From an uncultured Gammaproteobacteria bacterium (GTDB lineage: Bacteria > Patescibacteriota > Microgenomatia > Daviesbacterales > UBA10151): a DNA stretch of 32,000 bases. The notes beneath the pieces are model-generated. The model was not told the DNA's origin, did not search any database, and saw only the letters and a list, made by a program, of their open reading frames with translations. Positions 6,742 through 31,843 of this stretch are shown one piece after another. The stretch spans positions 12,265 through 44,264 of the forward strand of contig CAYHYM010000006.1 of the NCBI GenBank assembly GCA_964360965.1, given 5' to 3'. Each line of letters starts with the position of its first letter. Position 1 is the first letter of the stretch. Both the position numbers and the translations under genes were made by a program.

Positions 6742-8511
6742 TTATTTTTGGTATTGTTGATTATACATCTCAATTAACTCTTTAACTGTAGTGGCATCTT
6801 CAGCTTTTTTATCAGCCTCACGGAATTTAACTAAACGAGGAAACCTTAGGGCATATCCAGCCTGTCCTGAGCCTGCCGAAGGAGTTCTATCCATCCCGGC
6901 TGTATGATTTGGGGATCTGGTAATTTCATCTGCCAAAACTTCTATTACAATTTCCGGAGCTATCCAGACAGAAGGAACCAAGATAGCATTAACTCTGGCT
7001 GGTTTTTTATCTACCTTGATTTTGTCTGCTTTTTTGTGTACCTCCCTCCATTCCTCATCTGTTAAACCTGTGCCAATTTTAGACACTGTCACAAATTCAT
7101 CTTTTTTATCATCATAAACTCCTACCAATAGTGCCCCGGCACCAAAAGCAGACCTCTTTCCTTTTCCAAAAATATATCCTAAAATTACACAATCAATGGT
7201 ATCTTTTAACTCCCCGCTTGAATGTCTTTTCAGTTTTACCCAGTTAAAATTCCTGGCCCCTGCCTCATATTTGGAAGTGGGCCTTTTAACAATTAACCCC
7301 TCCAAACCTTTAGTGAGCGCATCATCAAAAAGTTCCTGTATTCTGTCTGATGAATCCGTAATCTCACCTACTTCTGGAATTAATACTTCATTACCCTTGA
7401 TTCTTGATTCTAAAAGCTTGATTCTCTCTCTTAATGGAGTATCCATTAAAGATTTACCATCCAAATACATCACATCAAATACAAAAGCTTTTAATGGAAG
7501 CTTTGCCGCCATTTCCTCAATTCCATATTTGCGACGCCTTTTAGTGGTCTCCTGAAAAGGTAAAAATTCTTCAGATACCGGATTAAAAGCCAGGGCTTCT
7601 GAATCTAAAATTGCAGTTTTTGCTTTTACTTGTGACAAAACTCCTTGGATAATATCCGGAAACATGGGGGTAGTTTCCTCTAAATTTCTGGAGAATAACC
7701 TAATTTTATCCCCGTCTTTGTGAATCTGTACTCTAAACCCGTCAAATTTTTGTTGCACATGAGCCTCCCAGCCAAATTTTTCCAGAATTGTTTTTGGATC
7801 CGGTAATCTTTCTGCCAATTGTGATCTGATGGGTCGACCTACAGTTACATCCAATCCCCGAACTCCCCGAATCCCCCGACTCCACAAAATTTCTCCAATC
7901 AAACCTAAATCAGAAACGCGGTTATAAGCAGCCTCAAGAATGGGTCGTTTGGCCCTGTCCCGAGCGAATACGAGGGCAAAAGCATCCAAAATTGTCGGGT
8001 CACCAATTCCCAATCTTGACACTCCCAAAGGAATCCTGACTAAATGCTTGGCACCTATTCCGTCTACTTTTTGTAAAAGTCCAGCCAAGCTGGATATTTT
8101 CTTTTCCACTGTTCCCTCCCCTGTGGTCTTTGCTATATTCCTAAGTGTTTCGAATACTTCATTTACTGTCATCCCGAATTTATTTCGGGATCTCTTTTGA
8201 GATTCTGAAACAAGTTCAGAATGACGTTCGGCTACCAATCCTAAATCCCCTATCCTTCCATATTCTTTGAGTACCTGCTCACGTTCTATTCCATAAGTTC
8301 TGGCCATGGCAGCTGCCACACTTTTCTCTGCCATGCCAATCTCTAATGGTTCATAAAATGGGGCCACCCTACCTTGTAGCAAATAACAAACCTTGGCTAT
8401 CTCATCAGACTTTACTTTAGAAAAAAGCTCAGCCAAAATATCAATCAGGACCAGTCTTGATGAGGTTCCTTCAAGTTTTTCAAAATACTCAGTCAGTTTT
8501 GCAAATAACAT
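6742..8511 (-). CDS. lig: ATP-dependent DNA ligase, archaeal/eukaryotic Lig1-like three-domain type
   Basis: Preferred ATG at 8511 (MLFAKLTEYFEKLEGTSSR), with AAGGAA 7 nt upstream. Adenylation motif I is QQKFDGFRVQIH (KxDG). Also present are EGLIVK, a WVKLK-type motif and a C-terminal LRFPRLVKFREADK. The track ORF starts earlier at a GTG. Confidence 0.9.
   Translation of the reverse strand: MLFAKLTEYFEKLEGTSSRLVLIDILAELFSKVKSDEIAKVCYLLQGRVAPFYEPLEIGMAEKSVAAAMARTYGIEREQVLKEYGRIGDLGLVAERHSELVSESQKRSRNKFGMTVNEVFETLRNIAKTTGEGTVEKKISSLAGLLQKVDGIGAKHLVRIPLGVSRLGIGDPTILDAFALVFARDRAKRPILEAAYNRVSDLGLIGEILWSRGIRGVRGLDVTVGRPIRSQLAERLPDPKTILEKFGWEAHVQQKFDGFRVQIHKDGDKIRLFSRNLEETTPMFPDIIQGVLSQVKAKTAILDSEALAFNPVSEEFLPFQETTKRRRKYGIEEMAAKLPLKAFVFDVMYLDGKSLMDTPLRERIKLLESRIKGNEVLIPEVGEITDSSDRIQELFDDALTKGLEGLIVKRPTSKYEAGARNFNWVKLKRHSSGELKDTIDCVILGYIFGKGKRSAFGAGALLVGVYDDKKDEFVTVSKIGTGLTDEEWREVHKKADKIKVDKKPARVNAILVPSVWIAPEIVIEVLADEITRSPNHTAGMDRTPSAGSGQAGYALRFPRLVKFREADKKAEDATTVKELIEMYNQQYQK
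8168..8225. repeat. ~58-bp palindromic element (GTCATCCCGAA...TTCAGAATGAC) inside the DNA ligase gene
   Basis: It has two hairpin arms (TCCCGAAATAAATTCGGGA-type and TTCTGAAACAAGTTCAGAA) and shares the GTCAT/ATGAC termini. It is read in a different phase from the other copies (ERHSELVSESQKRSRNKFGMT). Exact insertion boundaries are uncertain. Confidence 0.65.
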
Positions 8512-8517
8512 AAAGTT

Positions 8518-8539
8518 TCCTTGCCTTCGCAGGGACGAC
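8518..8539. repeat. Single-arm copy of family A in the ligase 5' UTR
   Basis: TCCTTGCCTTCGCAGGGACGAC matches the right arm of the copy at 15313-15334 at 20 of 22 positions, and the last 14 nt are identical. It lies 7-28 nt upstream of the ligase ATG. Confidence 0.65.
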
Positions 8540-8589
8540 ACTATGTGTCGATTGTAATAGATTAAGCAAATATTGTAAAATATGTTGCT

Positions 8590-9387
8590 ATGAGTTACCC
8601 TATAGAAGCTATGGTAGATGATGTAGAAACTGAAGTATCAACACCCGCAAATGGTGCTGACCAATTAGATGTAAGTGACCCTAGAATACGGGAACTACTT
8701 GATGCCAATCGAGTGGTGAGAAAAATTGTTAAAGAGAATGGACTATTATTTGAACAATTCCATTCTCAAGTAGACCCTAAAAAGCTTGATGAAGCCAAAT
8801 ATAGATCTGCCCTACATATTATTGAGGCTATGGGCTTAGATTCCTTAATTGAAGAAATTTACAATAAACGGGGGTTTAACACACAATTAAAAATTGAAGT
8901 TGGACGAGCTCTTAGAAATAATCTACCACTTATTGTTTTGCTTCTAGATCTGGATGATTTTAAAAAAGTTAACACAAATTATGGTCTTCTAGAGGCAGAC
9001 CAGACACTTGTTAGAATAGGTCAAGAGATTAAACAACATACCAGGATGGTTGACACGGTAGCCCGTTGGGGAGGAGATGAATTTGGTATCATCTTACAAG
9101 ATACCACAGCAGTTGAGGTTGTTGCAGTAGCGATGAGATTGCTTAGAGCTATTCCTTCTTTAGCACCAGAATACTCAGAATTAACTGCCTCAATAGGAAT
9201 AGCCCAATTTGATGCTCCCGGTGATAAAGATGGTCAAGCTCTTTTTAGTAGAGCAGAATCAGCATTACGTGCAGCTAAAGAATTTGGTAAGGATCAGATA
9301 GTTATTGCTGGAACAGCTAATCAGGATTTATCAATTGAAAGCCTTGATGCTGGAATTCAAAACAAAGTTACTTTAATACATAAGTAG
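8590..9387 (+). CDS. GGDEF-domain diguanylate cyclase with an uncharacterised ~100-aa N-terminal region
   Basis: LLLDLDDFKKVNTNYG and RWGGDEFGIIL (intact GGDEF active site). The 3' end overlaps the convergent Fic gene by 20 nt. Confidence 0.8.
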   Translation: MSYPIEAMVDDVETEVSTPANGADQLDVSDPRIRELLDANRVVRKIVKENGLLFEQFHSQVDPKKLDEAKYRSALHIIEAMGLDSLIEEIYNKRGFNTQLKIEVGRALRNNLPLIVLLLDLDDFKKVNTNYGLLEADQTLVRIGQEIKQHTRMVDTVARWGGDEFGIILQDTTAVEVVAVAMRLLRAIPSLAPEYSELTASIGIAQFDAPGDKDGQALFSRAESALRAAKEFGKDQIVIAGTANQDLSIESLDAGIQNKVTLIHK

Positions 9388-10417
9388 CTTTTTTGGTGCC
9401 GCCTACTTTTTTAATCAGGCTCTTTTGTTTTAAAAACTTCATTTCTCTCAAGACCGTATCATCGGAAAAATCAGGGAAAATTTTTCTGAAATCTTTATTC
9501 CTCATCTCTTTATGTTTGTGCAGATATTCCATGATGGCCATCTGCCGCTCATTTAACATCACCTGTCCGCCTAATTTGTCCTTGACAGCTGCATCAACAG
9601 ATATTCTTTGAACCTGCTCTTTAACCCGGTTAAGCTCAATGGCCACTCCTTCCACAAAATACTCCATCCAGGGAGTTAAATCTCGCTCATGCGTATCTAG
9701 TACGAGCTGATTTGATACAGCTTGCAGCGTTAAGTAATAGTTCATGGGATTTTGATCAAAATATTCTTCAAAGGAGAAAAATTTGCGGATATCATAGCCA
9801 TCCAAAAACATCACCAAGGTGGTCACCGCTCTGGCTACCCTGCCATTACCATCAACAAAAGGGTGAATTCTGGACAGTTCATAATGAACAATACCGGCCC
9901 TGATAACCGGATGAATAGCTTTAGCTTCATCGGAATTGATCCAGTCAACCAAATCTTCTATCAAAAATGGCACCTCGGCCGCCGGCGGAGGAGTATAGGA
10001 AATTTGACCTGTTAAACTATTGCGAATGACCACCTGACGTATTCTAAATATCCCCATCACATCCTGAGGTTGGATTTTTTCCACCACTAATCTGTGTATT
10101 TCTAAAACAGCTTCTATGGTCAGTAAGCTCACCTCATCAATAAATTTTAATACATTTCTGTAATTTAATATCTCTTGAATATCTCTGTATCGGGCTATTA
10201 CCTCTTCTCCGGATAAAACCTCTTTTACCTGTTCTTCGGATAATGGGTTTCCCTCCAAATGGGTTCCGTGATGGATACTTCTCTCCAGCGCCTCTTTTCT
10301 AAATTTAGCTTCCCAAACAGGTACCAGAGGAGCATTTATGATCACCTCACGAGCTGCATCAATTCTGCCAATATTTTTTAAAATTGAGTTAGTTATGGTA
10401 TATTTGGGCACAAACAT
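9368..10417 (-). CDS. Fic-family protein (AMPylase-type) with C-terminal winged-helix domain
   Basis: ATG at 10417. Canonical Fic motif HPFVDGNGRVAR. An N-terminal inhibitory-helix-like GTHLEGN keeps the Glu, but Gly replaces the usual S/T four residues before it. The C-terminal region is wHTH-like (MAIMEYLHKHKEMRNKDF...). Confidence 0.85.
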   Translation of the reverse strand: MFVPKYTITNSILKNIGRIDAAREVIINAPLVPVWEAKFRKEALERSIHHGTHLEGNPLSEEQVKEVLSGEEVIARYRDIQEILNYRNVLKFIDEVSLLTIEAVLEIHRLVVEKIQPQDVMGIFRIRQVVIRNSLTGQISYTPPPAAEVPFLIEDLVDWINSDEAKAIHPVIRAGIVHYELSRIHPFVDGNGRVARAVTTLVMFLDGYDIRKFFSFEEYFDQNPMNYYLTLQAVSNQLVLDTHERDLTPWMEYFVEGVAIELNRVKEQVQRISVDAAVKDKLGGQVMLNERQMAIMEYLHKHKEMRNKDFRKIFPDFSDDTVLREMKFLKQKSLIKKVGGTKKATYVLK

Positions 10418-24467: not shown

Positions 24468-24791
24468 TTAACGGATTTTGATACCTGGAGGGACCTTTTT
24501 AGGAACAGTTAAGAAAACTGGACCATTCTTTGTATCAGCTGCAAGCATCATCCCCTGTGACTCAAGTCCTATCATAGTGCGCGGTTCTAAATTTACCACA
24601 ACTACTGCCTGTTTACCCACAAAATCTTTCGGTTTATACCACTGTTTAACTCCTGCTAAAATCTGCCTAGAATTTTCTTCTCCTAAATCAACTTCTAATT
24701 TAATTAGTTTTTCAGATCCTTCCACCTCTTCTGCTTCCAAAACAGTACCCACTCTTAATTCAACTTTGGCAAAATCATCTATAGTAATCAT
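24468..24791 (-). CDS. Stand-alone tRNA-binding domain protein (Trbp111/CsaA/EMAPII-like)
   Basis: ATG at 24791. 107 aa with DFAKVELRVGTVLEAE...KLIKLEVDLGE...VVVVNLEPRTMIGLESQGMMLAA, the OB-fold tRNA-binding domain pattern. Confidence 0.8.
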   Translation of the reverse strand: MITIDDFAKVELRVGTVLEAEEVEGSEKLIKLEVDLGEENSRQILAGVKQWYKPKDFVGKQAVVVVNLEPRTMIGLESQGMMLAADTKNGPVFLTVPKKVPPGIKIR

Positions 24792-24890: not shown

Positions 24891-25232
24891 TTAAAGTTTT
24901 TTGGGTTTTTTAATTTGATGTAGTGTTACCTGAGATGAAATTTCAGATTGTTTAGGTTTCCTACCAAGTGATTTTAACTTTTCCATAATCCACATTCTGA
25001 CCATAGTTGATGGACCTACACCTAATTTAGCGCTTAGTTTTGTAAGTTGGGTCAGGGTTTTCCCATCCATTCTTACCCCTAAAATATGTTGCAAAGGTCT
25101 TACAAATTCAAGCTTAACAGGCTTAAATTCATCTTCAAATTCGGTTGTATCATGAGTATCCCACCACTCCACTTCTTCTTCATAGCTTTTGAATCTTGGG
25201 ATTCTGCTTTTTTTTCTTTTATTTGTAGTCAT
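24891..25232 (-). CDS. brnA: BrnA-like (CopG/RHH-type) antitoxin
   Basis: ATG at 25232, 2 nt after the brnT stop. IPRFKSYEEEVEWWDTHDTTEF followed by an RHH-like C-terminal region is typical of BrnA-family antitoxins. Confidence 0.6.
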   Translation of the reverse strand: MTTNKRKKSRIPRFKSYEEEVEWWDTHDTTEFEDEFKPVKLEFVRPLQHILGVRMDGKTLTQLTKLSAKLGVGPSTMVRMWIMEKLKSLGRKPKQSEISSQVTLHQIKKPKKL

Positions 25233-25234
25233 AG

Positions 25235-25507
25235 TTATTTTATCTTTTTCAAATAGAGTTTCTTTTCATTTTTAGCAGCATCTCTAGCTGTTATTGGATC
25301 AAACCAACCATAATCAGCAGGCTCAATTATAATGACTAAATAACGTCCACTACCTGTCTGCCCAATCAGTCTATACCTACCTTGCTTTGTTTTAACATCA
25401 TAATGTTTACCAAAAACAACTTCTTCTACCTCATCTGGCAAAACTCCGTGTCTTGAGATATGTTCCTCACGCCACTGATTCCAATTCAAACCTTTAATCT
25501 TAATCAT
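25235..25507 (-). CDS. brnT: BrnT-like (DUF497) ribonuclease toxin
   Basis: ATG at 25507, 90 aa. W..W...HI.RHGV..DEVEEVVFG and R..LIGQT..GRYLVIII...ITARDA...EKKLY fit the DUF497/BrnT pattern. Confidence 0.65.
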   Translation of the reverse strand: MIKIKGLNWNQWREEHISRHGVLPDEVEEVVFGKHYDVKTKQGRYRLIGQTGSGRYLVIIIEPADYGWFDPITARDAAKNEKKLYLKKIK

Positions 25508-25534: not shown

Positions 25535-26533
25535 TTACCTAAAATAATCAAGTCTCATAGCCTTCTTAACCTCTAACAAAGTTTTTTGGGCTTCTGATCT
25601 GGCTTTTTCAGTTCCCTCTTTTAAGATCCGTTCGACAAGCTTAGGATCTCGCTCGAAACGAGCTCGATTTTCTCTGATAGGCTGCAGGAAATTATTTAAA
25701 ACTTTTATCAGGTACTTTTTTACCTCAATATCACCAACTTGGCCTTTTGTATAAGCCTCTTTAAATTTGCCTATCTGAGCTCTATCACTCTCAGCACCAA
25801 AGGCATCCAGATAAATAAATACAGGGTTTCCTTCCACGGTCCCCGGGTCTGTTGGGTGTATTCTTTTCGGATCTGTATACATGCTCATGACCTTCTTTTC
25901 TACCTCTTCTTCGGAATCTGTCAGGAAAATAGCATTATTCAAGGATTTTCCCATTTTTCCTTGTCCGTCAGTACCTGGTAAAGTTGGTACTTCCCCTATT
26001 AAAGGTTCTGGAATTGGAAAAACATCTCCGTATAGATTATTGAATTTGATCGCCATATCTCTGGCAAATTCTACATGAGCCTTTTGATCCTTACCCACAG
26101 GCACTAAATTTGCTCTTGGAGTCAAAATATCAGCAGCCATAAGTACCGGGTAATAGAATAATCCTACAGTGTCTTGCTCTCCATGATCCAGCTTTTCTTT
26201 TAGAGCAGGCTGTCTTTCTAAAAGTGGTCTGGGTGTTAATAAACTTAAGAAATAGGCTAATTCAACTATTTCAGGAATTTTAGACTGCAGACAAAAAGTT
26301 ACCTTATTAGGATCCAAACCAACTGATAAATATCCCAGCATTAAACCTCTGATGTTTTTCTCTAAATCAGCAGTTCTATCAAAGTGGGTTGTTAAAGCAT
26401 GTAAATCCACCACCTCTATAAAGGTTTCATATTCATCCTGCAGTTTCACTCTATTGGCAAGTGATCCAACATAGTTTCCCAAATGAAAGCTATCAGATGT
26501 AGGCCTATCCCCTGTTAAGATTCTTTTCTTCAT
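25535..26533 (-). CDS. trpS: Tryptophan--tRNA ligase
   Basis: The ATG at 26533 directly abuts the upstream TAA. Class I motifs are TGDRPTSDSFHLGNYVG (HIGH-type) and KMGKSLNN (KMSKS). Size (332 aa) and overall pattern fit TrpRS. Confidence 0.9.
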   Translation of the reverse strand: MKKRILTGDRPTSDSFHLGNYVGSLANRVKLQDEYETFIEVVDLHALTTHFDRTADLEKNIRGLMLGYLSVGLDPNKVTFCLQSKIPEIVELAYFLSLLTPRPLLERQPALKEKLDHGEQDTVGLFYYPVLMAADILTPRANLVPVGKDQKAHVEFARDMAIKFNNLYGDVFPIPEPLIGEVPTLPGTDGQGKMGKSLNNAIFLTDSEEEVEKKVMSMYTDPKRIHPTDPGTVEGNPVFIYLDAFGAESDRAQIGKFKEAYTKGQVGDIEVKKYLIKVLNNFLQPIRENRARFERDPKLVERILKEGTEKARSEAQKTLLEVKKAMRLDYFR

Positions 26534-27625
26534 TTATTTGTCTCCTGAATCTATTAAAGCATAACAGAACTGGGCTGCTTGGACAAACTCCTCAATATTT
26601 AAATATTCTCTGATGGTGTGCATGCCATAAACTCCTGTGCCCACACATACTACCTCCAAACCATGCTCATTAAAGATATTAACATCTGATCCCCCACCAG
26701 TGGGCTCCAAACTAGGTTTAATTTTTAGTTTTTTATAAATTTCTAACACCATCTGAATCACTGGATGGTCTGGCGCGAATTTATAGGGATCAAACTCCCG
26801 TTTCATATCTATTTCCAAAACAGCCTGCTCATACTGCTTGTCAAACCTATCAAAAACCTCTTGAAAATGTTGTCTGTGTTTTTCCAATTTTTCTGAATCT
26901 CGGCTTCTAATTTCCGCCTTAAAATGAGCTCTTTCCGAAACAGCGTTGCGGGCGCTACCTCCCTCAATTAAGCCCACATTAGCGGTGGTCTCTTCATCAA
27001 TTCTGCCCAATGAGAGGTTGCTAATTATTTTAGAGGCGATCTCAATAGCTGAGATACCCTTTTCCGGCTCCACTCCAGCATGAGCACTACGGCCAATGAT
27101 GGTAACATCAACTCGATAATATCCAGGAGCCGAGACATTGACATGGCCCACGTCAGCGTGCCCATCAAAAGTGACTCCTTGACGGGCCGCAATTTTGGAA
27201 TAATCAAGATTCAAAGCTCCTACAAGCCCTGCTTCTTCGCCCAAGGTCATCACCACCTCTAAAGCTTTTGAATTTAGCTTTTTCTCCTGAGCGACAGTTA
27301 AAGCCTCCAGAACCAAAGCTACCCCTGCTTTATTATCAGCTCCCAAAATGGTTGAGCCATCTGTTTTGATGATGTTACCAACCACTTTAGGCTTAATCCC
27401 CCTGCCAGGTTCCACAGTATCCAAGTGAACATTAATCATAAAGGGTTCACCATTTCCTGCAAATCTGGTAATTAAATTACCGAACTGGTCAAACTCTACC
27501 TTCCCACCCAAATCCTTTAACCTTTTAGCCACCTCCTTAGCCACAGCTCCCTCTTCCCCAGAAGGACTATCAATTCTCACTAGTTCTAAAAATGTCTTAA
27601 TTAACCTTTTTTTGTTTATCATCAT
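26534..27625 (-). CDS. M20-family metallopeptidase (PepT-like)
   Basis: Preferred ATG at 27625 or 27622; the track start is a GTG. Motifs VRIDSPSGEE, HLDTV, GADNKAG, GEEAGLVG and GGGSDVN are M20 metal and catalytic signatures. The 5' end overlaps the HIT gene tail. Confidence 0.75.
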   Translation of the reverse strand: MMINKKRLIKTFLELVRIDSPSGEEGAVAKEVAKRLKDLGGKVEFDQFGNLITRFAGNGEPFMINVHLDTVEPGRGIKPKVVGNIIKTDGSTILGADNKAGVALVLEALTVAQEKKLNSKALEVVMTLGEEAGLVGALNLDYSKIAARQGVTFDGHADVGHVNVSAPGYYRVDVTIIGRSAHAGVEPEKGISAIEIASKIISNLSLGRIDEETTANVGLIEGGSARNAVSERAHFKAEIRSRDSEKLEKHRQHFQEVFDRFDKQYEQAVLEIDMKREFDPYKFAPDHPVIQMVLEIYKKLKIKPSLEPTGGGSDVNIFNEHGLEVVCVGTGVYGMHTIREYLNIEEFVQAAQFCYALIDSGDK

Positions 27626-28064
27626 TAGATTGTACTCCACGAACCAATTTTCTCCTGATTTCCATCAATGATTCTTTGCTTGCTGGTTCATTCTTTTCCA
27701 ATAATTTCTCACCACTTTTGTAGCGAGGGATAATATGGATATGAATATGCCCCACATGCCCTTTATCGCGACTCTCTAGTTTATAGAGCATATTATTAAC
27801 TCTTAAGATATAAGCCTTAGCCCCCAGGCTATTTTGGATGTACTCAGCTTCTTTAATAGCCTCTTGAAACAAGATAGCTTGTAACTCCTTAGGTATCTCT
27901 GTTAAAGAGCTAAAATGTTTTTTAGGTATTAAAAGAGTGTGCCCTTTAGTTTGAGGATGAAGTGATAGAATCAGATAATAATCTGACTCTTCCCTTAATC
28001 TCTGTTCAGGAACTAAAATTTCATCCGAAGTCAGCTGACAAAAAATACAATCAGACGATATCAT
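27597..28064 (-). CDS. HIT-family nucleotide hydrolase/transferase
   Basis: The ATG at 28064 overlaps the upstream gene by 14 nt. N-terminal CIFC, and the histidine triad HVGHIHIHIIP. Confidence 0.85.
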   Translation of the reverse strand: MISSDCIFCQLTSDEILVPEQRLREESDYYLILSLHPQTKGHTLLIPKKHFSSLTEIPKELQAILFQEAIKEAEYIQNSLGAKAYILRVNNMLYKLESRDKGHVGHIHIHIIPRYKSGEKLLEKNEPASKESLMEIRRKLVRGVQSNDDKQKKVN

Positions 28065-29463
28065 ATCCTAACCTCCTTAGACAAAATTTAATAGCTGTTT
28101 CAAGTAAATTGAAATCATGCTGTGTCAAAGAAACAATCCGTTCTTGCTGCCTTAAAATAGATCTAATAACATTGAAAAAATAGTTATTCCGATAGAAAAG
28201 CCCTTTTTGTTGACCAGTCGCATACTCCAGAATTTTAGCATCCATCTCTTTGCCTCTGTAACCTTGTCTTTTAACTGCTAGACCAATATCCTCTGGATTT
28301 TTAAGCGGACTAAAGTTATTCATAAAATTTAAAACCTCACCTATCTTAACATTTAAGAGGGCAGCTGTTCTTTGAGGTAAAAATTGCAACCATTTATCTT
28401 CATTTTTATCTGAGACTCGGAAACTACCAACTCTGGCTCTTAAATTATCAATTAACTCATCCATCTCTCGTTTAAACTCTAATGAGAGTTTATAAGAACC
28501 CACTAAAGCATCAACTAAACTATCATTGTCTCTAAAATCATAAAGCGACAGAATAGTTCCTTTGTCTTTAGCTACCGGTGTGGTTAAAACCATCTGCCTT
28601 AAAGCTGATAACAAAGACCCAGCTGGACATTTGGCTTTGAAAGTAGCAGTCAGTTCGCTTAATGTTAGGGCTTCGCCTTGAGTACCACTAGCAATTCCTC
28701 CGGCAAATGAGACTCCTGCACCTGGTAAGAGCGCAGCCTGACCAAACTCAGGCAAAGAAGAAAAAACATTAACGCTATCTAGCGCATCAGTGGAGGCATC
28801 AATAAAGATCGGCATAGTCTTCCCACCGCTCTCTAGCACTGGCTGAGATAACCCTAGCAATGAAACTAAACTCTTGCCAGTAGCTGTTAGCCGCCCGCCT
28901 TTTTTTAGGATCTTCACGCCTTTCTCGGTTGAAAACATAAAGCCTGTATTCCTCCAGACAGGATTAACTTGTTCAATGATATCCTGACTTAAAGATAACA
29001 GCTCTGACTCAGGGGTAACCTTTACTTCAAAACCAACCTCATTTAGCTTTGATTGAACATTTTGGGCTACGGCTGCGAAAATGTCATGTTGACCTTGATC
29101 TAACAGCTCCACTGCCTGTTCAAAAATCTCCCCTTGCTCAATTCTGTTCCTGTATGCACTAATTACTTCATCTACAGGTAAGATCGCTTGAGTTAAATTT
29201 CTGGCTGCTTCTTCCAGAGGTAAATTCATCCTCTCTGTGGCTGCCACTAAAGTTCCACCAGCCCTGGGTCCGGTATTGTTATTGATTAAGTAGATTGGGC
29301 TCTCTTCTCCTAGGCCCACTTTTAATAAGTCTGCTGTTGACAAAAGCAAAGCATGGCCGGCGTGCAGCTCCTTACCCAAAGTTACGCATAAGATAATCAC
29401 TGGTTTTAAGGTAGCAGTTTCAGCTAGCTCTACTCCTTCCTCTTTTATTAATCTTTCATTCAT
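28051..29463 (-). CDS. Divergent class-I aminoacyl-tRNA-synthetase-like protein, closest by eye to arginyl-tRNA synthetase but lacking the N-terminal tRNA-binding domain
   Basis: ATG at 29463 (ATGA overlap with the upstream gene). The HIGH-type motif KELHAGH is encoded at 29353-29364. By-eye colinear matches to E. coli ArgS (recalled from memory): PIYLINNNTGPRAGG / VIRANHVGDWGTQFG; KILKKGGRLTATGKS / IIQKKDGGYLYTTTD; IFIDASTDA / LYYIDSRQHQH; GGIASGTQGEALTLSEL / KPFKTRAGGTVKLADLL; NNYFFNVIRSILRQ / YMQYAYTRVLSVFRK. The gene call is solid; the functional assignment is tentative. Confidence 0.5.
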   Translation of the reverse strand: MNERLIKEEGVELAETATLKPVIILCVTLGKELHAGHALLLSTADLLKVGLGEESPIYLINNNTGPRAGGTLVAATERMNLPLEEAARNLTQAILPVDEVISAYRNRIEQGEIFEQAVELLDQGQHDIFAAVAQNVQSKLNEVGFEVKVTPESELLSLSQDIIEQVNPVWRNTGFMFSTEKGVKILKKGGRLTATGKSLVSLLGLSQPVLESGGKTMPIFIDASTDALDSVNVFSSLPEFGQAALLPGAGVSFAGGIASGTQGEALTLSELTATFKAKCPAGSLLSALRQMVLTTPVAKDKGTILSLYDFRDNDSLVDALVGSYKLSLEFKREMDELIDNLRARVGSFRVSDKNEDKWLQFLPQRTAALLNVKIGEVLNFMNNFSPLKNPEDIGLAVKRQGYRGKEMDAKILEYATGQQKGLFYRNNYFFNVIRSILRQQERIVSLTQHDFNLLETAIKFCLRRLGYDIV

Positions 29464-30134
29464 AATGTTACTTCTTTATTGGCTACTGCCCCCAATACTT
29501 TAGGGACGTCTTTATTAACCATTGAGCCATACAATCTAACTGATATCTGCGGGTCAGCTTTTTTAAGGCCCAAGATTTCTTCCTCGCTGGCTAGCTTAAT
29601 TGAGAATCTCTCTTTGGCCACTAAATCTAGCACCTGTTGGTAGATAGGAATATAATTTTTTCTTTCCACAGTTAACCTTTTTTGTCTATATATTTCCCAG
29701 ATCATTTCATCAACCATATGCAGGTAAGAAATTAAGAAGCCCTCAATAGTGGTCGGCTGGTTATTTAACAAAAGCAGCCTCAACCTTCCTTGAGGAACTG
29801 TATCTATCATCTGTTGTAAATCCTGCTCTGGTAGCTTTTGGGTGGTAGCCACAGGCACATATATTTTATTATCTTCATCATTTACCTCACCCAGAACACA
29901 CTCTGCCTTGCCTCCCGGCCGAACGCAGATGACCAGTTTCCCCCAGGTCTTTGACCAATTCTCTGATCTGATACAATCATCAGCTAGAGTCTCAAAGATT
30001 GACTCAGTTAGATCAGCTAAATTAGGCCTGGGTGAATTTAGAGCCACATAAAGGGCATACGGGCCACTAGATAAACGGCCTTTTTGATCTTTCCAGATTT
30101 GTCCTATCATGTGTAATTTTTCTTCTTCTTTCAT
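29460..30134 (-). CDS. Hypothetical protein (224 aa), translationally coupled to the ArgRS-like gene
   Basis: Preferred ATG at 30134 (MKEEEKLHM...), with GGAAG 5 nt upstream; the track start is a TTG. The stop overlaps the next ATG (ATGA). I recognised no motif. Confidence 0.6.
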   Translation of the reverse strand: MKEEEKLHMIGQIWKDQKGRLSSGPYALYVALNSPRPNLADLTESIFETLADDCIRSENWSKTWGKLVICVRPGGKAECVLGEVNDEDNKIYVPVATTQKLPEQDLQQMIDTVPQGRLRLLLLNNQPTTIEGFLISYLHMVDEMIWEIYRQKRLTVERKNYIPIYQQVLDLVAKERFSIKLASEEEILGLKKADPQISVRLYGSMVNKDVPKVLGAVANKEVTL

Positions 30135-30154
30135 AAATTCTTCCTTTTTTCCCC

Positions 30155-30181
30155 ACAAAAAAACCGCCTCTTGCGGCGGTT
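30155..30181 (-). terminator. Rho-independent terminator (minus strand) immediately upstream of the RBS of the 224-aa/ArgRS-like operon
   Basis: Minus strand reads AACCGCC-GCAAGA-GGCGGTT followed by TTTTTGTGGGG. That is a 7-bp GC-rich stem, a 6-nt loop and a 7-U run counting the two stem U's. Confidence 0.65.
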
Positions 30182-30322
30182 CCTTGTGTTTTTAATTCTT
30201 TTGTTTTTTCTTACATAGACTTAAGGCACAGAAAAACCACCGTTTTGAGCGGTAAATTTATAATGCCAATACCTAACTACCAAATTAAATATATCCATGT
30301 ATAGCAACTTTACCATAATATC

Positions 30323-30568
30323 CTAGGATTTGTCAAATTCATCTTGAAGAGGAGACCTTGGTATAAACTCAAATCTACCTACTACTCCTCCATTTAAAAT
30401 ATCTTCTGGTTTAACAATAACAGTTTTTCTGCCATCAGGAGATAACACCACCTTATCACCATCTAAAATCTCCACTGTTAAATCCACAGGTATATTAGAA
30501 TCTTTATAAACAGCCTTAACTACGTCTCCCGGTATAATTGGAGTAATTTTTACTTCAGATTCTGTCAT
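30323..30568 (-). CDS. Small hypothetical protein (81 aa)
   Basis: Preferred ATG at 30568 (MTESEVKITPIIPGD...). The longer track ORF adds a Cys/Phe/Leu-rich extension that runs across the divergent promoter region and overlaps the acetyltransferase start. Confidence 0.5.
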   Translation of the reverse strand: MTESEVKITPIIPGDVVKAVYKDSNIPVDLTVEILDGDKVVLSPDGRKTVIVKPEDILNGGVVGRFEFIPRSPLQDEFDKS

Positions 30569-30673: not shown

Positions 30674-31768
30674 ATGTCCACAAGCGAAATCAGTATGAAA
30701 ACAATTCCTGCAGAAGCAGATCAACAATCAAGCGCATTCTTTAGAAGATTCAATGAAGATTTTAGCCGGCTATACAATGCAGAAGATGAGCTTAGAGGGA
30801 TATTAGGCAAAACGGGAAAAGATATCAAGGTGGTTCCTCCCCTAGTTTGTACACATGGATCCAATACTTTTCTGGGAGACGGCGTCCACATCAATCTGGA
30901 AACCTTTTTCGACGATACCAAAAAAATCTACTTGGGAGATAGAGTCCTGACCGGTCCTTTTTTAAGCATTCTAACCATCAAAAAAGACAATGGTACAGTT
31001 TTAGATGGCGATGTGATGATCGAAGATGATGTCTGGATAGGCGGAGGGGTCACTATCTACCCGGGAGTAAGGGTTGGCAAGGGTGCTGTAATTAGTGCAG
31101 GTAGTATTGTGATGCAGGATGTAGCTCCTAATGCCTTGGTGGTGGGAGCACCAGTTCGGCAGATCAGAAAAATCGACCAGGAACAAGAGCCAGAAGGAAT
31201 AAACTCTGATACAGGAGAATCAGAGCGACATAAAATGGCCACACAAAAGGTTTTTTATAGTTCTGATCCGCAACTTAAAATGGACAAACAAAGAGCTTAT
31301 GAATTTTTCAGAAACTTTAATCTTCACGGATCAACACTATCATCAATGGAAAAAAGAGCAAGATTAAGAGAAATTTTGGGTGCAGTTGGAGAAGATATTG
31401 ATGTTAATTCTTTTTATTTTAGTTATGGTTACCAGATCTTTATGGGCAACGGAGTCACAATTGGAGAAAGATCCTTTCTGGGAGATGCCGGTAGAATAAC
31501 AATTGGCGATCATGTAGAACTTGGGCCAGAAGTACAGCTCTATACTACTAACCATTGTCTACCAATCAAGTATCGAGGCTATATAGTGGCAGAAGATATT
31601 ACGATCGGCTCCAATGCGAAGATTGGGAAAAGGACAATTATTCTTCCCGGGGTAACAGTTGGCGAAGGAGCAGTTGTGATGGAAAATAGTGTTGTCAATC
31701 ATAATGTTCCACCTTATACCAAAGCTGGCGGCATACCCGCCAAAGTTACTGGACAATTAGCCCGCTAA
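30674..31768 (+). CDS. Tandem (duplicated) maltose/galactoside O-acetyltransferase-like left-handed beta-helix protein
   Basis: ATG at 30674. Residues ~20-167 and ~188-364 each show the MAT layout of an N-terminal helical region plus hexapeptide repeats. Repeats in module 1: IEDDVWIGGGVTIYPGVRVGKGAVISAGSIV. Repeats in module 2: ITIGSNAKIGKRTIILPGVTVGEGAVVMENSVV. Module 2 keeps the YTTNH His at the position of the catalytic ATHP. Module 1 has LTIKKD there. Confidence 0.8.
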   Translation: MSTSEISMKTIPAEADQQSSAFFRRFNEDFSRLYNAEDELRGILGKTGKDIKVVPPLVCTHGSNTFLGDGVHINLETFFDDTKKIYLGDRVLTGPFLSILTIKKDNGTVLDGDVMIEDDVWIGGGVTIYPGVRVGKGAVISAGSIVMQDVAPNALVVGAPVRQIRKIDQEQEPEGINSDTGESERHKMATQKVFYSSDPQLKMDKQRAYEFFRNFNLHGSTLSSMEKRARLREILGAVGEDIDVNSFYFSYGYQIFMGNGVTIGERSFLGDAGRITIGDHVELGPEVQLYTTNHCLPIKYRGYIVAEDITIGSNAKIGKRTIILPGVTVGEGAVVMENSVVNHNVPPYTKAGGIPAKVTGQLAR

Positions 31769-31772
31769 GAAG

Positions 31773-31843
31773 TGGCAATGGGAGGAGTCGAACCTCCATC
31801 CGAGCTTTATGAGGGCTCCGCTTTGCCGTTAAGCTACACTGCC
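31773..31843 (-). tRNA. tRNA with CAT anticodon (elongator Met or lysidine-modified Ile2; cannot be distinguished here), no encoded CCA
   Basis: Hand-folded cloverleaf. Acceptor GGCAGTG/CATTGCC with one G-T pair. D arm GCTT-AACGGCA-AAGC. Anticodon arm GAGCC-CTCATAA-AGCTC with a C31-A39 mismatch. 4-nt variable loop. T arm GGAGG-TTCGACT-CCTCC. Discriminator A. Confidence 0.8.

What the first reader, a model, noticed from the sequence alone, without database searches (positions are those of the whole stretch)
25535..30134. Tightly overlapped five-gene string built around a truncated, highly divergent ArgRS-like protein (unknown 224 aa, aaRS-like, HIT, M20 peptidase, TrpRS)
Every junction in this string is overlapping or abutting: ATGA at 29460-29463, a 14-nt overlap at 28051-28064, a ~29-nt overlap at 27597-27625, and TAAATG at 26531-26536. 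The 470-aa protein keeps a class-I HIGH motif (KELHAGH) and is colinear by eye with arginyl-tRNA synthetase through the Rossmann fold and the C-terminal helical domain. It starts only ~30 residues before HIGH, so the N-terminal tRNA D-loop-binding domain is absent. Several blocks that I recall as conserved in canonical ArgRS (GDWGTQ, DSRQHQH, the KTRxGG-type loop) are replaced. Its partners are suggestive. HIT proteins hydrolyse or transfer aminoacyl- and acyl-adenylates. M20 enzymes cleave small peptides or N-acyl amino acids. The upstream 224-aa protein has no recognisable family. One possibility is that this is the organism's only, extremely derived ArgRS, with the 224-aa protein supplying the missing function in trans. 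The other is an aaRS paralogue repurposed for a non-translational aminoacyl-adenylate or aminoacyl-transfer reaction with HIT and M20 as proofreading or processing partners. Either outcome would be new biology.
Basis: partly seen in the sequence, partly recalled or inferred. Interest (0 to 1): 0.7.

Follow-up and report, generated by a model that had tools for sequence, protein, structure and literature searches.

The report
Split ArgRS-like enzyme with HIT partner
The "divergent ArgRS" is one half of a two-piece, unannotated relative of arginyl-tRNA synthetase found in CPR/Patescibacteria; it keeps the ATP-binding motif, has lost arginine-binding residues, almost always sits next to a HIT nucleotide hydrolase, and in a relative sits beside a normal ArgRS, so it is probably a repurposed synthetase, not the cell's ArgRS.

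Summary
The five-gene minus-strand string and all four junctions are as described. HIT, the PepT-like M20 peptidase and TrpRS are conventional.

The 470-aa protein matches no Pfam, NCBIfam or PDB sequence. A confident AlphaFold model (pLDDT 87) nevertheless hits ArgRS structures first (Foldseek E ~1e-8), then CysRS, MetRS and GluRS. It belongs to a rare family of about 110 clusters at 50% identity, labelled "hypothetical" where named.

Most members are single ~750-aa proteins. Their first ~250 residues correspond to the upstream 224-aa protein, so the window holds a split gene.

K-x-x-H-x-G-H is essentially invariant. Two arginine-binding positions of ArgRS (E. coli D118 and N123) are replaced by a hydrophobic residue and Thr.

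A relative (40% identity) has the same N–core–HIT trio directly upstream of a canonical ArgRS, so "sole, derived ArgRS" is not supported.

Across 14 contexts, HIT is adjacent in 13, TrpRS in 5 (including a member 27% identical to the window protein), M20 in 3, an APH-type kinase in 3 and ArgRS in 1.

Best reading: an accessory, ATP-dependent adenylate-forming ArgRS paralogue that works with HIT. Substrate and acceptor are unknown.

The parts
29460..30134 (-). N-module gene (224 aa). It is the split-off N-terminal domain of the family and an alpha/beta domain of unidentified fold. Invariant residues: W60, N124, W146, R200, Y202, G203, G215.
   Evidence: It is fused to the synthetase-like core in P0009 and in most of the 110 family representatives. 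Alignment A3 gives the invariant residues. It has no Pfam, NCBIfam or PDB sequence match. The start has an AAAGGAAG ribosome-binding site.
28051..29463 (-). Class-Ia synthetase-like core (470 aa) with an ArgRS-like fold.
   Evidence: The AlphaFold2 model has pLDDT 86.9 and pTM 0.87. Foldseek top hits are ArgRS 1f7u, 3fnr, 5yym and 1iq0 at E 1e-8 to 1e-7. No sequence-family match was found.
29353..29373 (-). K-E-L-H-A-G-H: the HIGH signature with the upstream Lys typical of ArgRS.
   Evidence: K(-3) is present in 58/58 family sequences, H in 57/58, G in 57/58 and the second H in 58/58. hhalign aligns this region to KEFHIGH of ArgRS (probability 59%, E 9e-5).
29263..29283 (-). NNNTGPR motif (N[N/D]TG[P/D/E]R family-wide), in the position of the ArgRS GDxGxQ/H block.
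   Evidence: It also aligns with DDTGRQ of T. thermophilus ArgRS.
28669..28695 (-). IASGTQGEA loop, colinear with the ArgRS 'GKMSSRTG' loop (the KMSKS equivalent). It carries no basic residue.
   Evidence: hhalign gives this as a second colinear match (E 0.096). An HMM alignment to 1iq0 covers the same loop. S259, G260 and G263 are invariant in A1.
27597..28064 (-). HIT (Hint-like) nucleotide hydrolase/transferase, 155 aa, with the triad HIHIHII at 27729-27749.
   Evidence: PF01230 matches at 54 bits. The triad is conserved in all neighbouring HITs. A HIT gene is adjacent to the family gene in 13 of 14 contexts.
26534..27625 (-). PepT-like M20 metallopeptidase/deacylase. It is a clade-specific neighbour.
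   Evidence: TIGR01883 matches at 316.6 bits, above the 274 cut-off. The same position is occupied only in L013 and L020.
25535..26533 (-). Conventional bacterial TrpRS (332 aa) with HLGN and KMGKS motifs.
   Evidence: TIGR00233 matches at 298 bits. The motifs were located. A TrpRS lies downstream of the module in L011, L012, L013 and L021.
30135..30336 (-). Structured upstream leader: a promoter-like site (30336-30307) followed by two terminator-like hairpins (30255-30237 and 30177-30163) just before the N-module start.
   Evidence: The fold has z = -3.95. There is no Rfam match. Its function is not established.

Best explanation
The 224-aa and 470-aa genes encode the two halves of one enzyme. 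This enzyme belongs to an unannotated family, recovered here from CPR/Patescibacteria-labelled records and metagenome contigs, that descends from (or is sister to) ArgRS-type class-Ia aminoacyl-tRNA synthetases.

The core keeps the ATP-binding apparatus: the Rossmann fold, an invariant K-x-x-H-x-G-H, a conserved Asp at the end of the strand that opens the second half of the fold, and a Ser-Gly loop in the KMSKS position. Its amino-acid pocket has been remodelled, so arginine is not its substrate.

The most likely mechanism is as follows. The enzyme uses ATP to activate a non-arginine carboxylate, most likely an amino acid or a derivative of one, as an acyl-adenylate. It then transfers the acyl group to an acceptor. 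The N-module, which sits where ArgRS has its tRNA-binding Add1 domain, supplies acceptor binding or a second activity. The adjacent HIT enzyme hydrolyses or re-routes the AMP-linked species, either as clearance of stray adenylate or as AMP transfer.

Shown: the split/fusion relationship, the fold, motif conservation, loss of two Arg-binding positions, coexistence with a canonical ArgRS in a relative, and HIT linkage.

Inferred: that adenylation actually occurs, the identity of substrate and acceptor, and the role of HIT.

M20 and TrpRS in the window are clade-level neighbours. The recurrent TrpRS/ArgRS linkage suggests the reaction is connected to tRNA charging.
For: Fusion: P0009 (790 aa) and most of the 110 representatives are 680-810 aa, with the core match starting near residue 250. 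The fused model has pLDDT 91.2 and pTM 0.89.

Fold: ArgRS is the top Foldseek hit for both models in PDB and in BFVD, at E 4e-8 to 1e-8.

Motifs: HIGH plus the upstream Lys is invariant in 58 sequences. Two colinear motif matches to ArgRS were found by hhalign.

Lost Arg pocket: positions -11 and -6 from HIGH are E and N in 39/39 canonical CPR ArgRS. They correspond to E. coli D118 and N123 (PMC3956977). In the family they are V/I/L-dominated, never acidic (-11), and Thr in 50/58 (-6).

Coexistence: in L004-L006 the order is N 225 aa, core 491 aa (40% identity), HIT, then a canonical 552-aa ArgRS.

HIT linkage: 13 of 14 distinct contexts, including members only 20-27% identical and in both orientations. 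All these HITs keep HxHxHxx.

Known biochemistry (from my own knowledge): Hint-type HIT enzymes hydrolyse aminoacyl-adenylates and nucleoside phosphoramidates.
Against: There is no biochemical evidence. No coordinates were available to map pocket residues by superposition, so only the two Arg-binding positions next to HIGH were tested.

The KMSKS-equivalent loop lacks any Lys or Arg, which could mean weak catalysis or none.

The N-module fold could not be identified.

The canonical argS of the window's own genome could not be looked for. Only 32 kb of a 44-kb contig was seen, and there is no ArgRS among the other large ORFs that were scanned.

L011 has the pair without HIT.

HIT genes are common housekeeping genes, so part of the linkage could be inherited synteny within related lineages.
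Confidence: 0.5

Rival explanations
1. It is a genuine tRNA-acting enzyme. It could be a non-canonical aaRS for an amino acid other than Arg, replacing or duplicating a standard one in these lineages. Alternatively it could be a tRNA-modifying aminoacyl-transferase in the manner of GluQRS. HIT would then be an adenylate-proofreading helper.
For: The ArgRS-like alignment spans the full length, including the C-terminal helical region (552 alignment columns for a 470-aa query). The N-module sits in the position of Add1. The module is repeatedly co-transcribed with tRNA-charging genes: TrpRS in the window, L011, L012 and L013; two TrpRS genes flanking the member in L021 that is 27% identical to the window protein; and ArgRS in L004. 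A tRNA_bind protein lies 0.7 kb downstream of TrpRS in the window.
Against: The family is rare and patchy: 110 clusters at 50% identity among 1.84 billion representatives. That fits an accessory function better than an essential one. Distant members sit with an APH kinase and HIT and have no aaRS nearby. No dedicated tRNA gene is adjacent. No DALR or anticodon-binding model matches.
Confidence: 0.25
2. It is the organism's only ArgRS, extremely derived, with the 224-aa protein providing the missing tRNA D-loop-binding function in trans.
For: ArgRS is the closest fold. The Lys upstream of HIGH is an ArgRS trait. No argS was found among the large ORFs scanned in the 32-kb window. The N-module occupies the Add1 position.
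Against: A canonical ArgRS is encoded right next to the same trio in L004-L006. The E/D(-11) and N(-6) arginine-binding positions are lost in the whole family sample. No ArgRS HMM matches any of 41 members. The N-module shows no similarity to the ArgRS N-terminal domain.
Confidence: 0.03
3. It is a catalytically inactive synthetase-like scaffold or regulator, for example a sensor or decoy for aminoacyl-adenylate-type toxins. HIT, and the APH kinase in distant members, would be the detoxifying enzymes, making this an antibiotic-resistance or conflict module.
For: The KMSKS-position loop has no basic residue. HIT hydrolases (MccH-type) and phosphotransferases are known immunity functions against aaRS-targeting Trojan-horse antibiotics (background in 10.64898/2025.12.02.691738, and my own knowledge). 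L017 lies among Abi_C, UvrD and ParB-methylase genes. The HIT gives a weak PADLOC ThsC match.
Against: The strict conservation of K-x-x-H-x-G-H, R67, Y104/R107 and D222 down to about 20% identity argues for a working active site. PADLOC finds nothing for the core or the N-module. The family is absent from viral contigs. Most contexts are housekeeping.
Confidence: 0.1
4. The co-location is only dense co-directional packing, and the five genes are functionally unrelated.
For: The whole window is tightly packed on the minus strand. M20 is present in only 3 of 14 contexts. The TrpRS-FtsH-polymerase/exonuclease-glycosyltransferase synteny is shared with L011 and looks like lineage inheritance.
Against: The N + core pair is fused in most relatives. 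HIT adjacency survives to 20-27% identity and through changes of orientation and flanks.
Confidence: 0.1

Closest known systems
Arginyl-tRNA synthetase (class Ia; Pfam PF03485 + PF00750 + PF05746)
   Same: It is the best structural match in every fold search. Both have HIGH with a Lys three residues upstream, a block in the GDxGxQ position (N[N/D]TGxR), an 'xxS-G/R-x-G' loop in place of KMSKS, a helical C-terminal domain and an extra N-terminal module.
   Different: No sequence model matches and identity is about 12%. The arginine-binding E/D(-11) and N(-6) are replaced. The N-module is about 230-250 aa with no detectable similarity to Add1. The gene is often split. It coexists with a canonical ArgRS in a relative.
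CysRS and its paralogue MshC (Cys:GlcN-Ins ligase)
   Same: They are the next-best fold matches (CysRS E ~1e-5, MshC ~1e-3). They share a G-x-T pattern at -8/-6 before HIGH. MshC is the precedent for a class-I synthetase paralogue that adenylates an amino acid and transfers it to a non-tRNA acceptor.
   Different: The zinc-ligand Cys at -9 is not conserved (C in 7/58). There is no PF01406 match. The family has Lys, not Asp, at -3.
GluQRS (YadB), the truncated GluRS paralogue that glutamylates queuosine in tRNA-Asp
   Same: It is a class-I aaRS paralogue that keeps the adenylation site and has a non-canonical tRNA-linked role. It is a model for the tRNA-modifier rival explanation.
   Different: GluQRS is clearly GluRS-like in sequence and lacks the anticodon-binding domain. 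This family has no detectable sequence relative and keeps a C-terminal helical domain plus an added N-module.
Hint-type HIT hydrolases acting on aaRS-generated aminoacyl-adenylates (e.g. the LysRS/Hint relationship; MccH-type immunity hydrolases)
   Same: The neighbour is a small HIT protein with an intact HxHxHxx triad, encoded next to an adenylate-forming synthetase-type protein.
   Different: The known cases are not a conserved operonic pair with a dedicated synthetase paralogue. Substrates here are unknown. Some family members add an APH-type kinase.

Membership tests
Arginyl-tRNA synthetase (ArgRS) | Sequence match to the ArgRS catalytic-core models (PF00750 / NCBIfam argS) above threshold | tested here: not met
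   No aaRS family matches the 470-aa protein at E<=1. None matches any of 41 family members at E<=10. BLASTP against a CPR ArgRS finds only KE[LF]H[AI]GH.
Arginyl-tRNA synthetase (ArgRS) | Class-I Rossmann fold with a HIGH motif and ArgRS-type overall architecture | tested here: met
   The models have pLDDT 87 and 91. ArgRS is the top Foldseek hit at E 1e-8 to 4e-8 with probability 1.00, but TM is only 0.4-0.5. HxGH is invariant.
Arginyl-tRNA synthetase (ArgRS) | Arginine-binding residues next to HIGH (E. coli D118 and N123; PMC3956977) | tested here: not met
   Canonical CPR ArgRS has E(-11) in 39/39 and N(-6) in 39/39. The family has V/I/L-dominated residues, never acidic, at -11 and Thr in 50/58 at -6. 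The register was taken ungapped from HIGH.
Arginyl-tRNA synthetase (ArgRS) | Arginine-binding Y313/D317/Q341 equivalents in the second half of the fold | not testable with these tools
   Model coordinates and residue-level structural alignments are not returned. hhalign does not align this region.
Arginyl-tRNA synthetase (ArgRS) | N-terminal Add1 domain (PF03485) that reads the tRNA D-loop | tested here: not met
   It is absent from the 470-aa protein, where HIGH is at residue 34. The 224-aa N-module has no PF03485 match and no hhalign similarity to the ArgRS alignment.
Arginyl-tRNA synthetase (ArgRS) | DALR anticodon-binding domain (PF05746) | tested here: inconclusive
   There is no PF05746 match. 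Foldseek alignments to ArgRS span about the full length of the query (552 columns), and the C-terminal 150 residues are helical.
Arginyl-tRNA synthetase (ArgRS) | Being the genome's arginine-charging enzyme (no other argS) | tested here: not met
   In relative L004-L006, a canonical 552-aa ArgRS is encoded immediately downstream of the same trio. This could not be tested for the window's own genome.
HIT superfamily, Hint branch | HIT domain with an HxHxHxx histidine triad | tested here: met
   PF01230 matches at 54 bits. HIHIHII is at residues 106-112.
M20 peptidase, PepT-like (TIGR01883) | Full-length match above the curated cut-off, with M20 catalytic and dimerisation domains | tested here: met
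   The match is 316.6 bits against a cut-off of 274.25. PF01546 and PF07687 both match.
Tryptophanyl-tRNA synthetase (bacterial type) | TIGR00233 above cut-off, with HIGH-type and KMSKS motifs | tested here: met
   The match is 298.3 bits against a cut-off of 176.75. HLGN is at residue 17 and KMGKS at residue 193.
CysRS / MshC | PF01406 match and a conserved zinc-binding Cys in the CGxT motif before HIGH | tested here: not met
   There is no Pfam match. Position -9 is Cys in only 7/58 sequences. Fold matches are weaker than to ArgRS.

The most novel reading that the evidence does not exclude
The N-module + ArgRS-like core + HIT (± APH kinase) is a previously unrecognised class-I synthetase system of CPR bacteria that performs a new tRNA-linked reaction. 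That reaction could be a new aminoacylation specificity, or an aminoacyl/adenylyl modification functionally coupled to TrpRS/ArgRS. This would differ from a simple small-molecule ligase.
Probability: 0.25. Interest if true: 0.85.

Novelty: new variant of a known kind. Interest (0 to 1): 0.62.

Why it matters
Synthetase paralogues such as MshC, GluQRS, HisZ, EpmA and the cyclodipeptide synthases have repeatedly revealed new chemistry built on the aminoacyl-adenylate reaction.

This family is invisible to Pfam and NCBIfam and is labelled "hypothetical" where it is named. Yet it is a confidently modelled ArgRS-fold protein with an intact ATP motif, a new 230-aa module and a conserved HIT partner. 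It is found in organisms with minimal genomes, where retained accessory enzymes are likely to matter.

Identifying its substrate would add a new branch to class-I synthetase evolution. It could also explain a conserved synthetase-HIT partnership, a pairing for which I know of no operonic example.

Tried and rejected
- **Sole-ArgRS reading.** Rejected because of L004-L006 and the lost Arg-binding positions.
- **Split as frameshift or assembly artefact.** Rejected. The N|core split with overlapping stop/start recurs on at least 8 independent contigs at 34-79% identity. L019 alone shows a broken core gene.
- **Sequence-level identification of the core.** phmmer and a profile against PDB gave only a non-significant 1iq0 hit at E 0.81. 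Global hhalign failed.
- **Genome collection scans.** Both genome-contig scans found no relative, only one presumed chance hit, L010 (not inspected). One metagenome pattern scan found nothing. The viral contig scan found nothing.
- **Defence-system membership.** There is no PADLOC match for the core or the N-module.
- **T-box or riboswitch in the leader.** There is no Rfam match.
- **Dedicated tRNA next to the module.** None is adjacent. tRNA(CAT) genes lie 1.6-4.5 kb upstream in three loci, but their sequences differ.
- **Literature.** No paper describing an ArgRS paralogue with a HIT partner was found.

Full report
**Observation.** The region holds five co-directional minus-strand genes at the stated coordinates. 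I read the junctions directly:
- ATGA at 29460-29463.
- A 14-nt overlap at 28051-28064.
- A 29-nt overlap at 27597-27625, if the M20 gene starts at the ATG at 27625. A GTG at 27640 is also open.
- TAAATG at 26531-26536.

The 224-aa gene starts at the ATG at 30134, behind an AAAGGAAG ribosome-binding site. Upstream lies a 190-nt structured leader with a promoter-like site and two terminator-like hairpins. It has no Rfam match.

**The conventional genes.** Three of the five are ordinary.
- The 155-aa protein is a HIT protein: PF01230 at 54 bits, with the triad HIHIHII.
- The 363/368-aa protein is a PepT-like M20 enzyme: TIGR01883 at 317 bits against a cut-off of 274.
- The 332-aa protein is a standard bacterial TrpRS: TIGR00233 at 298 bits against a cut-off of 177, with HLGN and KMGKS motifs.

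**The 470-aa protein.** It matches no Pfam or NCBIfam model and no PDB sequence.

A database search found 14 relatives, none with a Pfam domain. A profile search of 1.84 billion cluster representatives found 110 at E<=1e-3 and 49 at E<=1e-30.

An AlphaFold2 model built on the 14-sequence alignment is confident (pLDDT 86.9, pTM 0.87). Foldseek against the PDB ranks ArgRS structures first: 1f7u at 9.5e-9, then 3fnr, 5yym, 1iq0 and 1bs2. MetRS, CysRS, GluRS and MshC follow. Identity is about 12% and TM-scores are 0.4-0.5. A second model of a fused relative gives the same order in the PDB and in BFVD.

At the sequence level only motifs survive. A family profile aligns to T. thermophilus ArgRS at HIGH, and at the 'MSGRKG' loop, with E 0.81. 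A local hhalign of 58 family sequences against 39 CPR ArgRS aligns K-E-L-H-A-G-H…NNNTGPR with K-E-F-H-I-G-H…GDVGLH (probability 59%, E 9e-5). It then aligns, colinearly, 'GgIaSGTkGea' with 'GKMSSRTG' (E 0.096).

The protein is nevertheless not an ArgRS by any sequence criterion.

**The 224-aa protein is the other half of the same enzyme.** In P0009 (790 aa) the N-terminal 250 residues align with the 224-aa protein and the remainder aligns with the 470-aa protein. Most of the 110 representatives are 680-810 aa, with the core match starting near residue 250. The fused form is therefore the common one, and the window's clade has a split gene.

The split, with overlapping stop and start codons, recurs on independent contigs (L002, L004, L011, L012, L013, L019, L020). 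It is not an assembly artefact.

The fused model has pLDDT 91.2 and pTM 0.89, with only the linker (residues 253-270) disordered. I infer from this that the two parts dock on each other.

The N-module is an alpha/beta domain with invariant W60, N124, W146, R200, Y202 and G203. It has no match in Pfam, NCBIfam, PADLOC or PDB sequences, and no hhalign similarity to ArgRS. Its fold remains unidentified.

**Active-site reading.** I compared 58 family sequences spanning about 20-100% identity.

| Position relative to first His of HIGH | Family (58 sequences) | Canonical CPR ArgRS (39 sequences) |
|---|---|---|
| -11 | V/I/L-dominated, never acidic | E in 39/39 |
| -6 | Thr in 50/58 | N in 39/39 |
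| -3 | Lys in 58/58 | Lys in 39/39 |
| 0, +2, +3 (HxGH) | 57/58, 57/58, 58/58 | conserved |

The upstream Lys is an ArgRS hallmark (my own knowledge). R67, Y104, R107, G174-F175, D222 and S259-G260 are also conserved family-wide.

In E. coli ArgRS the arginine side chain and backbone are held by D118 and N123 just before HIGH, together with Y313, D317 and Q341 (PMC3956977). Positions -11 and -6 in the table are the D118 and N123 equivalents. The ATP site therefore looks intact, while at least two arginine-binding positions are gone. I could not map the Y313, D317 and Q341 equivalents without model coordinates.

**Genomic context.** I assembled 14 distinct contexts.

| Locus | Gene order |
|---|---|
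| window | N, core, HIT, M20, TrpRS |
| L013 | N, core, HIT, M20, TrpRS |
| L020 | N, core, HIT, M20, unknown 233 aa |
| L012 | N, core, HIT, TrpRS |
| L011 | N, core, TrpRS |
| L004-L006 | N, core, HIT, canonical ArgRS (PF03485 + PF00750 + PF05746) |
| L002/L003 | N, core, HIT |
| L019 | N, core, HIT |
| L001 | fused, HIT |
| L021 | archaeal-type TrpRS-like, fused, HIT, YbaK-TrpRS fusion; all overlapping |
| L014 | fused, then a convergent 260-aa HIT-domain protein |
| L015/L016 | fused, then convergent HIT and an APH-type kinase |
| L017 | fused, APH kinase, convergent HIT |
| L018 | fused, APH kinase, HIT as a tight operon |

The core in L004-L006 is 40% identical to the window protein. The fused protein in L021 is 27% identical to it.

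The tally is HIT in 13 of 14, TrpRS in 5, M20 in 3, APH kinase in 3 and ArgRS in 1. All the neighbouring HITs keep the histidine triad.

Where named, hosts are Patescibacteria or Candidatus Komeilibacteria, and the proteins are "hypothetical". The ArgRS of L004 is of the Microgenomates type.

**Interpretation.** The conserved unit is [N-module + ArgRS-like core] + HIT. M20 is a clade-specific addition.

TrpRS linkage recurs deeply enough (27% identity) to suggest a connection with tRNA charging. It is absent from the APH-type contexts.

The "sole, derived ArgRS" reading is contradicted by the canonical ArgRS next to the trio in L004-L006 and by the lost Arg-binding positions. I could not search the window's own genome for argS. 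None lies among the large ORFs scanned in the 32-kb window.

I favour (0.5) an accessory ATP-dependent adenylate-forming ligase with a remodelled substrate pocket, whose AMP-linked intermediate or by-product is handled by HIT. Whether the acceptor is a tRNA (rival, 0.25) or something else cannot be decided here. A catalytically dead scaffold or decoy within a detoxification module (0.1) is made less likely by the strict conservation of catalytic-type residues.

**Comparison with what is known.** The nearest families are ArgRS (fold, Lys-HIGH, loop pattern), CysRS/MshC (next-best fold matches and a G-x-T pattern before HIGH, but no conserved zinc-ligand Cys) and, functionally, synthetase paralogues such as MshC and GluQRS. 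The protein fails the ArgRS membership tests on sequence model, Add1 domain, two arginine-binding positions and uniqueness in the genome. Three literature searches found no description of an ArgRS paralogue with a HIT partner.

I rate it a new variant of a known kind: an undescribed class-I synthetase paralogue family with a new N-module and a conserved HIT partner.

**Limits.** There are no experimental data. The N-module fold is unidentified. There was no residue-level structural superposition. Contexts come mostly from short metagenomic contigs of related groundwater CPR lineages, so the counts are not phylogenetically independent. Both genome-collection scans were empty, so no complete-genome census was possible.

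Noticed in passing
window 24891-25507 (-): A BrnT-like toxin (90 aa, PF04365 below threshold) and a CopG-antitoxin-domain protein (113 aa, PF12441) sit between TrpRS and the tRNA-binding protein. L011, which is otherwise syntenic, has no such pair there, only an unassigned 105-aa ORF. The pair therefore looks like an inserted toxin-antitoxin cassette.
   Followed up: partly
window 24468-24791 (-): A stand-alone 107-aa tRNA-binding domain protein (PF01588, Trbp111/CsaA-like) lies 0.7 kb downstream of TrpRS and just upstream of FtsH.
   Followed up: partly
window 30135-30336 (-): The leader upstream of the N-module gene has a promoter-like site followed by two tandem terminator-like hairpins. 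Its fold z-score is -3.95 and it has no Rfam match. It could be simply the terminators of the upstream 81-aa gene, or it could be an attenuator.
   Followed up: partly
L021 836-1903 and 4559-5989: One operon carries two TrpRS genes flanking the fused family member and HIT. One is an archaeal/eukaryotic-type TrpRS-like protein (355 aa, at the TIGR00233 cut-off). The other is a bacterial TrpRS fused to an N-terminal YbaK-type tRNA_edit domain (476 aa). I do not know of such an editing-domain fusion in TrpRS.
   Followed up: partly
L019 435-1837: The closest metagenomic relative of the core gene (79% identity) is broken into 324-aa and 76-aa ORFs with a stop near the 5' end. This is either a sequencing error or a pseudogene.
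   Followed up: no
L015 4332-5393, L017 10624-11478, L018 12235-13302: An APH/choline-kinase-like phosphotransferase (PF01636) accompanies the fused gene and HIT in three distant family members. No NCBIfam subfamily could be assigned.
   Followed up: partly
L017 1-7208: The Komeilibacteria member lies next to SNase, ParB-N6/N4 methyltransferase, UvrD-like helicase and Abi_C genes, which looks like a defence island.
   Followed up: no
window 31772-31843 (-); L020 1090-1162; L001 1042-1119: A tRNA with a CAT anticodon lies 1.6-4.5 kb upstream of the module, on the same strand, in three loci. The three sequences differ and the intervening genes differ, so this may be coincidence.
   Followed up: partly
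window 6742-8541 (-), 9368-10417 (-): The same small-genome contig carries an ATP-dependent (archaeal/eukaryotic-type) DNA ligase and a Fic-domain protein.
   Followed up: no
window 30674-31768 (+): A 364-aa protein with two hexapeptide-repeat (LbH) acetyltransferase halves, the second preceded by a Mac capping motif, is transcribed divergently from the string.
   Followed up: no
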